In this document: in pieces, positions 10,335 through 14,100 of the stretch | Layout of the letters: every line of letters begins with the position of its first letter | How positions within the stretch are numbered: the first letter of the stretch is position 1 | Source: the human T2T-CHM13v2.0 reference genome, Homo sapiens | Assembly: GCF_009914755.1 (NCBI RefSeq) | Contig: NC_060931.1 | Length of the DNA stretch: 64,000 nt | Reading direction: 5' to 3' (one strand) | Notes under the pieces: model-generated | Told to the model about the DNA's origin: nothing | The model's input: only the letters and a program-made list of their open reading frames with translations | Database searches by the model: none | Program-made: the position numbers and the translations under genes

Positions 10335-10439
10335 CTAAGGCCGGTCCAGCAGGGCGTGGACGACAGCAGCGATGTAGGGGAGGCCCCTTCCCGGGGCCCC
10401 CTCCTCTTCCAGGATGTGGTGGGGCTGGCACAGTGACTC
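10335..10439 (-). CDS. LRCH4: LRCH4 alternative terminal coding exon, non-transmembrane: ESLCQPHHILEEEGAPGRGLPYIAAVVHALLDRP*
   Basis: Acceptor CCTTCCCCCAG|GAG is phase 0, matching the exon-17 donor at 11788. The peptide resembles the LRCH-family CH-domain end (LC.PHHILEE.G). It would give a 652-aa isoform. Confidence 0.8.
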   Translation of the reverse strand, partial: ESLCQPHHILEEEGAPGRGLPYIAAVVHALLDRP

Positions 10440-11189
10440 CTGGGGGAAGGGGCCGGGTTAGCTTCCCCACGGTGCCCCCTGCGGCTTCCGGCCTGTGGCA
10501 GGGGGTCGGGGGCAGACCCGAGCATCACCGTGCGCTCGGGGCTCGGCGACAAATGAGACGCAAGAAAGCTGTCAGCGATAACAGAAGGGAGGTGACACGG
10601 GGGGTTGGCGGACGCTCCGGGAGCATGAGAGGCCGGCATCTCAGGAGGGAGATGCTGGTGGGCACAGAGCCATGGCCACAGCCACCAACACGCGGAGCAG
10701 ACGCGCGCGCGCGCGCACACACACACACACAGGCAGGGCGGCCACGGTCTGTACAGTTTATACACAGAGATAGGGACCCGGCCTGGGCCCCGAACCCCTA
10801 CAAATATAGATCCTCTCTACAAAATAGAGATAATTTAGCCCCCCCATAGCAGCTGTTGGGGGGGGAAGGGGAGGGCACAGGAGGAAGGGGGAGACTCCAG
10901 CTCCTGCCACCCCTCACGGGGTACAGAGGGCAGGGGCAGGGCCGGCGGGGACATGAAGGCACCGTCAGCACTGAGAGGTGGGGACTCGTGGGGCTACTGG
11001 AGGGAGGCCAGAGGCTGGGGGCCCAGGGTCTGGGGGCACCAGAGTGGGGCCTCTGAGGTCAGTGTCTGTGAAGGGGGTGCACTAGTGTCTTTGGTTGGGG
11101 CTGAAGGCACCGCAGGTGGGGTCGGGTGGAGCAGGGACCTTATAAATAGAGAGGAAGGGAAAGGGGTGAGGGAGGGCCGATTTTGGGGC

Positions 11190-14100
11190 CTAGGAACCCA
11201 GGAGCCGAGTGTAGGTGACATAGAGCAGCAGCATGAGGACCACGTAGAAGACGACGAAGCCGCCCAGACCAGAGGGGGGCCAGAGGGGCGGTAGGGCCTT
11301 GCCCCCCACCCGCTTCACGGCCTCCAGCGCGGTCCGCAGCCCCCGGGCAGTGCCCTGGAGGAGATCCGAGGGCGAGCACAGGTCAGCCTGGGGGAGAGGA
11401 GAGCAGGTGGACAAGGACAAGGGACAGACGTCAGCAGCAGCAGCAGGACAGTCCCTCCCACCCCTGCCCTCACGTGCTGGGGCCAGAACCACGCCCACAT
11501 GCTGACGTGCTGGGCAGGGGGAGTGCAGTGCAGGAGGAGTGCAGGGCAGGGCATGTGCAGGACAGGTGACATGCAGGACAAGATGGGGCCTGCAGGGCAG
11601 GGGATGTGTAGGACAGGTGACATGCAGGGCAGGGGGCATGCAGGGCAGGGGGCATGCTGGGCAGGGCAGGGGCAGCCTGTGCCTTCATCTGAGAGCAGAC
11701 ATCCGCTGCAAATGGAAGCCCACCATCCATGCCACATGCTCGGCTGAGTCCGGCATGCCACCACTCTTTAGAAAGCAGCCCCCATACCTCAGGCACCCCC
11801 ATTTTTCGACAGGCTTCTAGAAAACTCTCCACATTCTTCCGAGCCTTGAGGGCACTGAGTTTTGGCTGGGGTGGGTGAAAGAAGAAAATGTGGTAAGGGA
11901 GAGGCCACAGGCGCCCCGGCCCATCCCCCACCTCTTCCCCAGCCCCAACTGACCACAGCAGGGGAGGGCACATGGATGAAGGGCACGGAGCGCGGCCGTA
12001 GCTGGTTGGCCAGCTGGCACAGGATGACCCCACTGGCCAGAGCCTCGGCCAGGTCCTCAGGCAGGGGCCGCTGCAGCCGGGACTCAAGGACCTGGCAGTG
12101 TAGACCACATAGAGCAGGGGTCAGGGAAGGAGAGGCGTCTGGGAGGCAGGGAGAGTGGGGGGCTCAGGGCTAGCAGGGAACTTGTGCCTGTCCCTTCCTG
12201 TCCTCAGGGGAGGTGCCAGAGTGGGCACAGAGGATGTGGAGGGAGGCTGGTCCCAAGGACAGCAACACAAGGAGGTGCCCGGCCCAGGCCCCTGCCCACG
12301 CAGCTCCCGCCTCTGCTCACCTGGCGCAGCTGAGTCATTAAGTCCTTCTCATCTGGAACCTGGGGGTACCGCCGAGGTCTCAGGACAGAGTCTGGTGAGG
12401 AAGGGCCTAGGAGAAAAAGGGGGGCATGGGGCTGCCTCCACTGCTCACCACTGACTCTGTAGCTGGGTCCCAGTGGCCTGGCACCTACACCTCCTGCCTC
12501 TCTGCTTGTGGGATTTTTTTTTATTTCATGGAGATGGGGTCTCGCTATGTTGCCCAGGCTGGTCTTGAATTCCTGGGCTCAAGCGATCCTCCCACCTGGG
12601 CCTCCTAAAGTGCTGCGATTACAGGTGTGAGCCACCACACCCGGCTTGCTTGTGGGATTTTCAACGCAAAGGTACAAAAGGTACAACAGACCCAGAGGGC
12701 TCCCAGGGCAGAAGGGTGATGTAGCCGTTGGTGCTGGCAAGCACTGGGTCAGCACTGGGGAGGGCAGGACACCCACCTGAGCCACTCTGAGAGGAGGAAC
12801 GGAAGAGGAAGCTGTTTGGTCTCTGAATGGAGCCAAGTGGCCGTGGAGCAGGTGCTGTCGCTGGGGCCGGAACCAGGGACACAGCGACAGGGGCAGGTGA
12901 GACAGGCATCCCCTCTGTGTCCCTCTCTCCCAACCAGCCCTCACCAACACAGGCCCCATCCTCCTCCCAAAATCCCTGTCCCACCTGGTCCAGCTATGGG
13001 AAGGGGCTCTTGGGAGGCAGGGGCAGGGGCGGGGGCTCCCTGCCCCGCTGCAGCCCCTGCTTGGGAGGCACTGGACTTAGGCGAGCCGCTGAGGAGAGAC
13101 AGAAGGGAATTAGAGGGATGATGGTCATAGGAAGAGGAGTGGGGAGGGGATGCTGGCAGGAAACCTACTTGTGCATGGCTTGAGTGGACACGGCGGCGGC
13201 CCCTCCCACAACAGCCCTGAGCCCTGGCTTCAAGAGGCTGGAACAAGGAGAGGTGGGGTCAGCTAGCCCCAAGGCAGAACGGCTCAGCGGGGCTCGGTGG
13301 CCCCATTTCCAGGGCTCAGTGTCCAGCAACAGCCCCGGGCGGCCCTGGGTCCCACCTATCCTTCCTCGGGGCCCCCCACGCCCCGCTCTGCTGCTGCTGC
13401 CGCCGTTCCCGCTCCTGCCACAGCTGCAAGGTGTCCGGGCGCCGCCGCTCCTCCCCTGCCGGCTCCTCCCGCCTGAGGGACCAAGACAGGGCAAGAGGGG
13501 CAGACCCCGGGGTCAGGGAAGGAGGCGGTTGGGGGGTGGGAGGATCGGGCAGTGGCGTCAGTTTGGGGGCTTGGGGTACCTGCTGCTTGGTGCCCTCTCC
13601 CTGTCCCCTGCCCCAGGGCTTAATTCGGGTGGTCGCTGCTCCTAAGGAGAGAACAGCAGAGCAGCTGAGGGCAGGCCTGTGCCCACGCCTGCCCTGTCCC
13701 CTCCTCCAGCTCCCCTCCCTTGGGAGAGGCATAGCTGGGCTCTCACCTCCACAGTGCCTCGCTCTTCATCCTCCCCGGGGACATGGCTGTCGATGAAGTC
13801 AATCTGCACAGGGTCTCCGTCCGCTGGGGAGGCCAGCATGTCAGCAAGTGAGCGGGGACCCAGGCCCTGGTCCAGCCCAGCTCCCGGCCAGCCCTGCTAC
13901 TCACCTGAGCCATCCTCCTTGCGTTCTCTGGGCCCCCGGGGCTCCCGGGCCAGCTCTGAGATCCGGAATGACAGCTCTGAAAATTCATCTGTTGACTGTA
14001 AAGGCAGAGGCAGAGATGGGAGATGGCCTCTCTGTACATGGGGGCTCAGGACCTGGGGGGTCCTGTGTGGGACTAAGCTCAGGGTCTCTGCTGAGCCAGC

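What the first reader, a model, noticed from the sequence alone, without database searches (positions are those of the whole stretch)
10335..11787. RBFOX-motif array ahead of competing membrane-anchored and soluble LRCH4 terminal exons
Seen in sequence: the 400-nt last intron (11388-11787) has eight GCAUG motifs on the LRCH4 sense strand (+ strand CATGC at 11498, 11570, 11621, 11637, 11653, 11728, 11735, 11754), three of them full UGCAUG. Under equal base use a 5-mer is expected less than once in 400 nt; some copies arise from a tandem repeat. The exon-17 donor can join a proximal acceptor (11387; CH end plus TM helix) or a distal one (10439; ESLCQPHHILEEE...LDRP*, CH end with no TM). Established: RBFOX proteins bind (U)GCAUG and usually repress when bound upstream of an exon. 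Inference: an RBFOX-dependent switch selects membrane-bound or cytosolic LRCH4 in neurons, muscle or mesenchyme, possibly tuned by repeat copy number.
Basis: partly seen in the sequence, partly recalled or inferred. Interest (0 to 1): 0.78.

Follow-up and report, generated by a model that had tools for sequence, protein, structure and literature searches.

The report
GCAUG cluster before LRCH4's alternative endings
The short last intron of human LRCH4 really is packed with RBFOX-type GCAUG motifs just ahead of an ancient choice between a membrane-anchored and a soluble protein ending, and published mouse knockdown data show that RBFOX2 does shift this choice, but towards the membrane form, not away from it.

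Summary
All eight sense-strand GCAUG sit where stated, three of them UGCAUG, and 0 of 5000 dinucleotide shuffles of the intron reach eight. Four lie in a degenerate 16-nt minisatellite at 11507-11666.

The two "terminal exons" share the distal AAUAAA. In RefSeq terms this is an alternative 3' splice site, with one candidate proximal poly(A) signal between the acceptors.

The layout exon 17, then tail-anchor exon, then soluble exon is repeated in LRCH1 and LRCH3, so it is old. The GCAUG cluster is found only in LRCH4.

Gazzara et al. 2017, Table S3, lists the orthologous mouse junctions. Rbfox2 knockdown lowers the proximal junction by 0.25-0.48 and raises the distal one by 0.21-0.39. CELF2 overexpression does the same.

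RBFOX dependence is therefore supported in mouse, with RBFOX2 favouring the membrane form. Direct binding to the array, conservation of the motifs and any human effect remain untested.

This is a new member of a known kind, of moderate interest.

The parts
11788..11865 (-). LRCH4 exon 17 (78 nt, 26 codons): the donor shared by both terminal junctions
   Evidence: Gene table; donor GAG|gtatgg. Homologous 78-nt exons occur in LRCH1, LRCH2 and LRCH3. The mouse source exon in Gazzara Table S3 is also 78 nt.
11388..11787 (-). Last intron (400 nt) with eight sense GCAUG, three of them UGCAUG
   Evidence: 8 observed against shuffle mean 1.89; 0 of 5000 shuffles reach 8. Unique in the genome. Folding is no more stable than shuffles, z -0.28.
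11728..11758 (-). Three GCAUG 30-60 nt downstream of the donor, outside the tandem array
   Evidence: Intron positions 30, 49 and 56. GCATG is the commonest 5-mer in this 121-nt part.
11507..11666 (-). Degenerate C-rich 16-nt minisatellite (sense unit roughly CCCTGCCCTGCA-YR-) carrying four GCAUG
   Evidence: TRF: period 16, 9.8 copies, 75% matches. Units vary at the GCA-NN position: GCATG, GCACA, GCACT, GCAGG, GCACG.
11430..11446 (-). (CUG)5 run abutting the CUGAC branch-point candidate of the proximal acceptor
   Evidence: TRF row 11432-11446; yUnAy CTGAC with branch A at -44.
11190..11387 (-). Proximal terminal coding segment: end of the CH domain plus a C-terminal hydrophobic tail anchor, then stop
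   Evidence: Translation. The best 19-residue hydropathy window averages 2.26 and is followed by 7 residues. Homologous exons in LRCH1 and LRCH3.
10700..10762 (-). Candidate proximal poly(A) signal: UAUAAA (10757-10762), nearby UGUA elements, and a (UG)n/(CG)n downstream tract
   Evidence: Hexamer scan found only two signals in the 3' UTR. TRF dinucleotide runs at 10702-10731. Proximal and distal PAS use, dependent on CELF2, is reported for LRCH4 in Jurkat cells. The exact published site was not seen.
10440..10461 (-). Distal acceptor region: CUAAC branch point (A at -19) and pyrimidine tract
10335..10439 (-). Distal terminal coding segment: alternative end of the CH domain without a TM segment, then stop
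   Evidence: Translation. RefSeq exon 10094-10439 of other transcripts. 50-53% identical exons in LRCH1, LRCH2 and LRCH3. Alignment A1 has invariant L, C, P, L shared with the TM-type exons.
10132..10137 (-). AAUAAA: the distal poly(A) signal shared by both forms
   Evidence: annotated transcript ends at 10094 and 10114.

Best explanation
LRCH4 ends in an old pair of alternative last coding segments fed by one donor (exon 17). The proximal acceptor at 11387 adds the last CH helix plus a C-terminal tail anchor. The distal acceptor at 10439 adds a homologous CH ending with no membrane segment.

The 400-nt intron between the donor and the proximal acceptor holds the only GCAUG cluster in the 3' half of the gene. 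The most likely reading is that RBFOX2 bound in this short intron acts as an intronic enhancer of its removal. That commits the transcript to the proximal (membrane) form before the distal acceptor, about 950 nt further on, can compete. When RBFOX2 is low or CELF is high, the distal acceptor wins and the soluble form rises.

Shown: the motif cluster, the two acceptors, the family-wide exon layout, and the response of the mouse junctions to Rbfox2 knockdown and CELF overexpression.

Inferred: direct binding to the array, the kinetic mechanism, and transfer from mouse to human.

About half the motifs are by-products of a decaying minisatellite. They may add to, but are not needed for, the three donor-proximal sites.
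For: Cluster.
- 8 GCATG against shuffle mean 1.89; 0 of 5000 shuffles reach 8.
- It is the window maximum.
- There is no other sense GCATG from 10094 to 14901.
- Of the 13 RBP-type patterns tested against 2000 shuffles, GCATG departs most (z 4.8). YGCY (z 0.3), UGU (z 0.5) and PTB-type motifs (z -0.1) do not depart.
- Four motifs lie outside the tandem array, three of them 30-60 nt from the donor.

Mouse response (Gazzara 2017 Table S3; supplement rows and header read).
- Source exon 137639578-137639655 (78 nt), junction to 137639948: Rbfox2 myotube knockdown -0.250, myoblast knockdown -0.479, Celf2 heart overexpression -0.393.
- Junction to 137640765, target exon ending at 137641099: +0.209, +0.387 and +0.228 for the same three conditions.
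- 137641099 is the end of the mouse gene.
- The exon sizes, 78 and 335 nt, match the human 78 and 346 nt.

Splice sites. Both human acceptors have good branch points and pyrimidine tracts.

Age of the layout. The order exon 17, TM-type exon, soluble-type exon is found in LRCH1 and LRCH3.
Against: - No binding data for this intron were seen. A search for LRCH4 with CLIP returned 13 papers; I judged from the search listing, plus passages read in other calls for four of them, that none shows RBFOX binding to this intron.
- No human RBFOX perturbation data were found for this event. Nothing was found in the supplements of PMC8373071 (1 file), PMC10676425 (12 of 21 files searched) or PMC11874969 (9 files).
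- In rat myoblasts with RBFOX2 knockdown, Lrch4 appears only in expression tables, with no change (4 files).
- In Rbfox2-deleted mouse hearts the only Lrch4 event listed is an upstream retained intron.
- The mouse intron is about 292 nt and its sequence could not be read, so conservation of the motifs is unknown.
- LRCH1, LRCH2 and LRCH3 show at most 1 GCATG within 300 nt of the homologous exons, and at most 2-3 per 400 nt across 20 kb. The cluster is therefore not an ancestral feature of the switch.
- In a global thermodynamic fold the motifs are mostly paired: unpaired probability 0.00-0.39 against an intron mean of 0.36.
- CELF2 represses RBFOX2 expression (Gazzara/Chatrikhi text), so some of the effects could be indirect.
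Confidence: 0.45

Rival explanations
1. The array is a neutral by-product. A C-rich minisatellite with a GCA-YR core expanded and decayed, and CpG-to-TpG decay turned GCACG-type cores into GCATG. The Rbfox2 effect seen in mouse is indirect or runs through other sites.
For: - Four of eight motifs are inside a 9.8-copy, 75%-matched 16-nt array.
- Units carry GCATG, GCACA, GCACT, GCAGG or GCACG at the same position.
- The intron has 7 CpG against 40 expected, and 54 TG against 34 CA.
- The repeat words CCTGC (16), TGCCC (11) and CCCTG (11) are commoner than GCATG.
- Paralogues lack any cluster.
- Predicted pairing of the motifs is high.
Against: - Three further GCATG lie outside the array within 60 nt of the donor, and one lies after it.
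- This is the only sense-strand cluster near an event that measurably responds to Rbfox2 in mouse.
Confidence: 0.3
2. The choice is set mainly at the poly(A) step by CELF proteins. Use of a proximal poly(A) site (UAUAAA at 10757-10762 with a UG-rich downstream element) ends the transcript before the distal acceptor exists. CELF2 blocks that site, which lengthens the transcript and lets the distal acceptor compete. RBFOX2 matters only because CELF2 and RBFOX2 antagonise each other.
For: - CELF2-dependent alternative polyadenylation of LRCH4, with proximal and distal sites validated by 3' RACE and with CELF2, CFIm68 and CstF64 CLIP tracks, plus an approximately 5-fold protein change (PMC6752737: section 11 and the Fig. 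6 legend read).
- The candidate signal with UGUA elements and a (UG)n tract.
- Celf2 overexpression shifts the mouse junctions in the same direction as Rbfox2 knockdown.
Against: - The published position of the proximal site was not seen, since figures are not held.
- Rbfox2 knockdown alone gives the largest shift, -0.48.
- Lrch4 is absent from the APA tables of the rat RBFOX2 study.
- UGUGU/GUGUG words are absent from the intron itself.
Confidence: 0.15
3. One reading: RBFOX bound upstream of the proximal exon represses it, so RBFOX-rich tissues make the soluble form.
For: Five of the motifs lie 110-270 nt upstream of the proximal acceptor. The general RBFOX position rule is recalled knowledge, not tested here.
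Against: Mouse Rbfox2 knockdown lowers the proximal junction and raises the distal one in both myoblasts and myotubes. That is the opposite sign.
Confidence: 0.05
4. The sequence acts at the DNA level: an enhancer, or a G-rich template-strand element. The RNA motifs are incidental.
For: RefSeq lists enhancer elements at 10847-11401 and 11402-11955 (gene table). The + strand of the array is G-rich, with consensus unit GTGCAGGGCAGGGGGA.
Against: Nothing examined here tests enhancer activity. This reading does not explain the junction response to Rbfox2.
Confidence: 0.05

Closest known systems
RBFOX2/CELF antagonistically regulated splicing events in muscle and heart (Gazzara et al. 2017, Genome Res, PMC5538552)
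   Same: Mouse Lrch4 terminal junctions are listed in that paper's Table S3. They show the defining behaviour: the same direction of change on CELF overexpression and on Rbfox2 knockdown.
   Different: It is class 4, with no change in heart development, T1D heart or myogenesis. It is not a cassette exon but a choice of 3' splice site in the last exon. It is not discussed in any main text found: a search for LRCH4 with RBFOX returned 4 papers, none on this event.
Classical RBFOX intronic enhancers downstream of a 5' splice site (for example Mef2d alpha2, or protein 4.1R exon 16 as cited in the Gazzara reference list)
   Same: (U)GCAUG copies lie within 30-60 nt downstream of a donor, and RBFOX acts positively on the nearby splice.
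   Different: Here the donor is common to both outcomes, so a donor-side enhancer cannot by itself discriminate between them. A kinetic or intron-definition step has to be assumed. Half the motifs come from a minisatellite rather than from conserved single sites.
LRCH isoforms with and without a C-terminal TM domain (Riviere et al. 2020 review, PMC7536344, citing Aloor et al. 2019)
   Same: These are the same two protein forms. The review notes TM forms for LRCH1 and LRCH4, and by prediction for LRCH3.
   Different: The passages read in the review say nothing about exon structure, the shared donor or regulators ('splic' occurs 0 times). The Aloor paper itself could not be read.
CELF2-regulated alternative polyadenylation of LRCH4 (Chatrikhi et al. 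2019, PMC6752737)
   Same: It concerns the same terminal region and the same antagonistic factor pair.
   Different: It is described there as 3' UTR APA. The coding consequence of the distal acceptor is not mentioned in the passages read.

Membership tests
Direct RBFOX splicing target | (U)GCAUG within about 300 nt of the regulated splice sites, on the sense strand | tested here: met
   Eight GCATG, three of them TGCATG, lie 30-286 nt from the donor and 110-366 nt from the proximal acceptor.
Direct RBFOX splicing target | Splicing changes when RBFOX is depleted or added | tested here: inconclusive
   Met for the mouse orthologue in one re-analysed dataset: dPSI -0.25/-0.48 and +0.21/+0.39. No human data were found.
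Direct RBFOX splicing target | RBFOX crosslinks to the motifs in vivo (CLIP) | not testable with these tools
   No CLIP tracks are available. A search for LRCH4 with CLIP listed 13 papers; judged from the search listing, plus passages read in other calls for four of them, none shows RBFOX binding to this intron.
Direct RBFOX splicing target | Motifs conserved in other vertebrates | not testable with these tools
   Only the human assembly is held. Human paralogues lack the cluster.
Direct RBFOX splicing target | Position rule: upstream sites repress, downstream sites enhance | tested here: inconclusive
   Read as 'upstream of the proximal exon', the mouse sign contradicts the rule. Read as 'downstream of exon 17', it fits.
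Alternative last exons with separate poly(A) sites | Each terminal exon has its own cleavage site | tested here: inconclusive
   RefSeq forms share the AATAAA at 10132-10137. One candidate proximal signal, TATAAA at 10757-10762, exists, and APA is published for the gene, but the published site position was not seen.
Minisatellite / VNTR | Head-to-tail copies with a period of 10-100 nt | tested here: met
   TRF: period 16, 9.8 copies, 75% matches, score 104.
Minisatellite / VNTR | Copy number varies between people | not testable with these tools
   Only one assembly is held. A search for LRCH4 with VNTR found 0 papers.
Tail-anchored membrane protein (proximal form) | Single hydrophobic segment within about 30 residues of the C-terminus | tested here: met
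   The best 19-residue window averages 2.26 (Kyte-Doolittle) and is followed by 7 residues. LRCH1 (2.47) and LRCH3 (2.18) show the same.
Tail-anchored membrane protein (proximal form) | No N-terminal signal peptide | tested here: inconclusive
   The exon 1 product starts [15 protein letters not shown]..., with no Leu-rich core by eye. No signal-peptide predictor was run.
CH domain, last helix encoded by either terminal exon | Match to Pfam PF00307 across the junction | tested here: inconclusive
   Exon 16 matches profile positions 17-54 of 109 (E 9e-07). Neither terminal peptine nor exon 17 scores on its own: 0 families at E <= 10. That the terminal exons supply the end of the domain is inferred from position and from the shared LCxPxxxL motif.

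The most novel reading that the evidence does not exclude
In the human lineage a minisatellite has multiplied RBFOX sites inside the 400-nt intron. Its copy number would then set how strongly RBFOX2 pushes LRCH4 towards the tail-anchored form. That would be a repeat-length splicing QTL acting through RBFOX, on a protein reported to help deliver LPS to TLR4. It would link a common structural variant to innate immune responsiveness.
Probability: 0.07. Interest if true: 0.7.

Novelty: new member of a known kind. Interest (0 to 1): 0.4.

Why it matters
According to the review, only the TM form of mouse LRCH4 supported LPS binding and signalling, and how the forms with and without TM differ is listed there as an open question.

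A factor pair (RBFOX2 against CELF) that sets the ratio of the two forms would give a handle on that question, and would explain tissue differences. CELF2 is high and RBFOX low in immune cells; the reverse holds in muscle.

The finding also shows that the two-ending layout is a family trait of LRCH1, LRCH3 and LRCH4. In all three, the hydrophobic segment sits seven residues from the C-terminus. That is the geometry of a tail anchor, which would leave the LRR and CH domains in the cytosol. It is at odds with the ectodomain model quoted in the review.

Tried and rejected
YGCY is dense (19 copies), but no more so than composition predicts (z 0.3). A (CUG)5 run next to the branch point remains a minor lead.
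- PTB, CELF (UGU, UGUGU) and QKI motifs in the intron: not enriched.
- A special RNA structure. The intron folds no better than shuffles (z -0.28, 38 of 100 shuffles fold as well). No Rfam family fits; the only hit has E 0.46, lies outside the intron and is below threshold.
- BLASTP of the two terminal peptides against each other: no alignment. Their relatedness rests on the seven-sequence alignment.
- Pfam on the terminal peptides alone: nothing.
- Reading Aloor et al. 2019: not held.
- The Lrch4 A3SS event in PARP12-knockdown BV2 cells (PMC13476304): the main text gives no coordinates, so it cannot be tied to this event.
- A search for a TM-type exon in LRCH2: none between exon 17 and the soluble exon. 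The only hit is weak, interrupted by a stop codon and downstream (E 0.005).
As a result the header of Gazzara Table S1 (file 3), the unsearched files of PMC10676425 and PMC9771820, and the classic RBFOX CLIP papers were not examined. These may hold binding or human data that bear on the claim.
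Full report
**1. The observation**

I read the region on the LRCH4 sense (-) strand. A pattern search places GCATG on that strand at + starts 11498, 11570, 11621, 11637, 11653, 11728, 11735 and 11754. Those at 11570, 11621 and 11637 are TGCATG.

How the count compares with chance:
- The intron is C-rich (A 51, C 148, G 108, T 93). 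Dinucleotide-preserving shuffles give mean 1.89, sd 1.23 and maximum 7. None of 5000 reaches eight.
- The whole window is not enriched: 133 matches on both strands against 132.8 expected.
- In a sliding 400-nt scan of both strands, eight is the window maximum. Only one other place reaches five or more. It is 16528-17302, also on the LRCH4 sense strand, inside a degenerate GU-rich microsatellite of intron 4.
- Between 10094 and 14901 there is no other sense-strand GCATG.

The cluster is real, local and not explained by composition.

**2. The repeat**

TRF reports a 16-nt period array at 11507-11666, with 9.8 copies and 75% matches. Four of the eight motifs are inside it. Three lie in the 121 nt between the donor and the array, and one lies in the 119 nt after it.

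Written out, the units share CCTGCCCTGCA followed by a variable pair. That gives GCATG, GCACA, GCACT, GCAGG or GCACG at the same place. The intron has 7 CpG where 40 are expected, and 54 TG against 34 CA. Decay of a GCACG-type core to GCATG is therefore a plausible neutral source for the in-array copies. This is an inference; no outgroup was available.

The repeat words CCTGC (16), TGCCC (11) and CCCTG (11) outnumber GCATG. Against 2000 shuffles, GCATG is nevertheless the most deviant of the RBP-type motifs I tried (z 4.8). YGCY (z 0.3), UGU (z 0.5), PTB-type words (z -0.1) and UGUGU (none present) are unremarkable.

The intron folds no better than its shuffles (z -0.28), and no Rfam family matches it. 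In a global partition-function fold the motifs are mostly paired: unpaired probability 0.00-0.39 against an intron mean of 0.36. This is weak evidence against easy access.

**3. The two endings**

The donor is GAG|gtatgg.
- The proximal acceptor (11387) has a 0.90 pyrimidine tract and a CUGAC with its branch A at -44, directly after a (CUG)5 run.
- The distal acceptor (10439) has a 0.75 tract and a consensus CUAAC with its branch A at -19.

Both junctions are in phase 0.
- The distal exon reads ESLCQPHHILEEEGAPGRGLPYIAAVVHALLDRP*.
- The proximal exon reads [12 protein letters not shown]... and ends in a hydrophobic stretch. Its best 19-residue window averages 2.26 on the Kyte-Doolittle scale and is followed by only seven residues.

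Exon 16 matches Pfam CH positions 17-54 of 109. By position, exon 17 and either terminal exon must supply the rest of the domain. The terminal peptides are too short to score alone.

One correction to the finding. The RefSeq last exon 10094-11387 contains the distal exon, and the only AATAAA in the 3' UTR is at 10132-10137. As annotated, the two forms are alternative 3' splice sites 948 nt apart with one poly(A) site.

There is one other hexamer: UAUAAA at 10757-10762. It has UGUA elements around it and a (UG)n/(CG)n tract 25-55 nt downstream. Chatrikhi et al. 2019 report CELF2-dependent use of proximal and distal poly(A) sites in LRCH4, validated by 3' RACE (section 11 and the Fig. 6 legend read).

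**4. Relatives inside the genome**

The intron is unique in the assembly. Searching the assembly with the two terminal peptides found the paralogues. I fetched 20 kb around each. The tblastn results, for E <= 0.05:

| Gene | Exon-17 homologue | TM-type exon | Soluble-type exon |
|---|---|---|---|
| LRCH1 (chr13) | 77% identical | about 7.6 kb further on (E 9.5e-10) | about 8.7 kb beyond that (E 4e-6) |
| LRCH3 (chr3) | present | present (E 4e-5) | present (E 3.7e-5), in the same order |
| LRCH2 (chrX) | present | no intact copy between the two | present (E 8e-7) |

For LRCH2.

A seven-sequence alignment shows that both exon types share invariant L, C, P and L at their start. They look like an old duplicated exon pair. 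The tail-anchor geometry, with seven residues after the hydrophobic window, is the same in LRCH1, LRCH3 and LRCH4.

The switch therefore predates the split of these genes. The GCAUG cluster does not. The paralogues have 0-1 GCATG within 300 nt of the homologous exons, and at most 2-3 per 400 nt anywhere in the 20 kb.

**5. Evidence on RBFOX**

No main text in the held library links LRCH4 to RBFOX. Four papers hold both words. Passages read in two of them and the titles of the other two show no link to this event.

The supplement of Gazzara et al. 2017 (Genome Res, PMC5538552) does. Its Table S3 lists local splicing variations that change in the same direction on CELF overexpression and on Rbfox2 knockdown in mouse. 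Lrch4 appears twice, as class 4 (rows, legend and column header).

| Comparison | Exon-17 donor to proximal acceptor (137639655-137639948; source exon 137639578-137639655, 78 nt) | Exon-17 donor to distal acceptor (137639655-137640765; target exon 137640765-137641099) |
|---|---|---|
| Celf2 heart overexpression | -0.393 | +0.228 |
| Celf1 heart overexpression | not quantifiable (NaN) | +0.101 |
| Rbfox2 myotube knockdown | -0.250 | +0.209 |
| Rbfox2 myoblast knockdown | -0.479 | +0.387 |
| Heart development, T1D heart, C2C12 differentiation | about 0 | about 0 |

137641099 is the end of the mouse gene (table in PMC8454922). The sizes (78-nt exon, roughly 292-nt intron, 817 nt between acceptors, 335-nt last exon) mirror the human 78, 400, 948 and 346. 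This is therefore the orthologous event.

Rbfox2 loss moves a quarter to a half of the transcripts from the membrane form to the soluble form. The sign is the opposite of "RBFOX upstream of an exon represses it".

Results that do not add support:
- PMC8373071: no LRCH4 entry (1 file).
- PMC10676425: none (12 of 21 files searched).
- PMC11874969: none (9 files).
- PMC8600936, rat myoblast RBFOX2 knockdown: expression tables only, with no change (4 files).
- PMC9771820: only a proteomics row (12 of 16 files searched).
- PMC8881802, Rbfox2-deleted hearts: an upstream retained intron of Lrch4, not this event.

No CLIP evidence was seen.

**6. How it most likely works**

Shown:
- one donor and two good acceptors;
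- a GCAUG cluster confined to the short intron;
- a mouse orthologue whose choice depends on Rbfox2 and CELF levels.

Inferred:
- RBFOX2 binds the intron. The three donor-proximal sites are the best candidates, and the array copies are possible reinforcements.
- Binding speeds removal of the 400-nt intron. The proximal acceptor is then used before the distal one, transcribed about 950 nt later with its consensus branch point, can compete.
- CELF proteins oppose this by one or more of three routes: lowering RBFOX2 (stated), acting at the UG-rich proximal poly(A) region, or both.

I put 0.45 on this.

**7. What is known and what is new**

Known:
- The two protein forms, and the fact that only the TM form of mouse LRCH4 supported LPS signalling. 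This comes from passages of the Riviere 2020 review. The primary paper, Aloor 2019, was not held.
- The RBFOX2/CELF sensitivity of the mouse junctions is in print, but only as two rows of a supplementary table.

Not found in print with my searches:
- The motif cluster.
- The shared-donor anatomy.
- The family-wide exon order.
- The tail-anchor geometry.

The searches were LRCH4 with RBFOX, splicing, MBNL, CLIP, tail-anchored and VNTR. They cover main texts of the held library only.

The finding is a further member of a well-known class of RBFOX-regulated events, with an uncommon geometry and a useful biological read-out.

**8. Verdict**

- Observation: confirmed.
- Interpretation: partly supported. 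RBFOX dependence holds in mouse. Binding, conservation, the human effect and the copy-number idea are all untested.
- Interest: 0.4.

Noticed in passing
window 16528-17302 (- strand, LRCH4 intron 4): This is the second and only other dense sense-strand GCAUG cluster in the window, with up to 7 per 400 nt. It is embedded in a long degenerate GU/UG microsatellite with repeated GUGCAUGUGU, which mixes RBFOX-type and CELF/TDP-43-type words in the same gene.
   Followed up: partly
window 11190-11387; L005:1501-1704; L008:1498-1698: The hydrophobic segment of LRCH4, LRCH1 and LRCH3 ends seven residues before the C-terminus. That is tail-anchor geometry, which would leave the LRR and CH domains in the cytosol. 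The review quotes an extracellular LRR model instead. The exon 1 product ([15 protein letters not shown]...) shows no obvious signal peptide by eye.
   Followed up: partly
window 11388-11865 (- strand): If the last intron is retained (RefSeq lists an exon 10114-11865), the frame from exon 17 stays open for 105 more codons through the minisatellite. That gives a Pro/Ala/Cys-rich tail before a TGA.
   Followed up: no
window 9983-10094: The LRCH4 poly(A) end (10094) lies only about 110 nt upstream of the annotated SAP25 start (9983) on the same strand. Read-through or interference between the two genes is conceivable.
   Followed up: no
window 13169-13664 (LRCH4 exons 13169-13237, 13356-13472, 13580-13664): Gazzara 2017 supplementary file 3 lists a human LRCH4 exon triplet (hg19 chr7:100174708-100175204). 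By its exon sizes it corresponds to the 117-nt exon 13356-13472 and its neighbours. The table header was not read, so what the listing means is unknown.
   Followed up: no
mouse chr5:137633849-137634249 (mm10; orthologous to the human intron between 17965 and 18124): A retained-intron event in Lrch4 differs between control and Rbfox2-deleted embryonic hearts (0.01 against 0.31, low read counts) in the supplement of PMC8881802.
   Followed up: no
L014+L015 (LRCH2, chrX), region position 17793-17903 in gene sense: A weak, stop-interrupted match to the LRCH1 TM-type exon (E 0.005) lies downstream of the LRCH2 soluble exon. It is either a decayed relic or chance.
   Followed up: no
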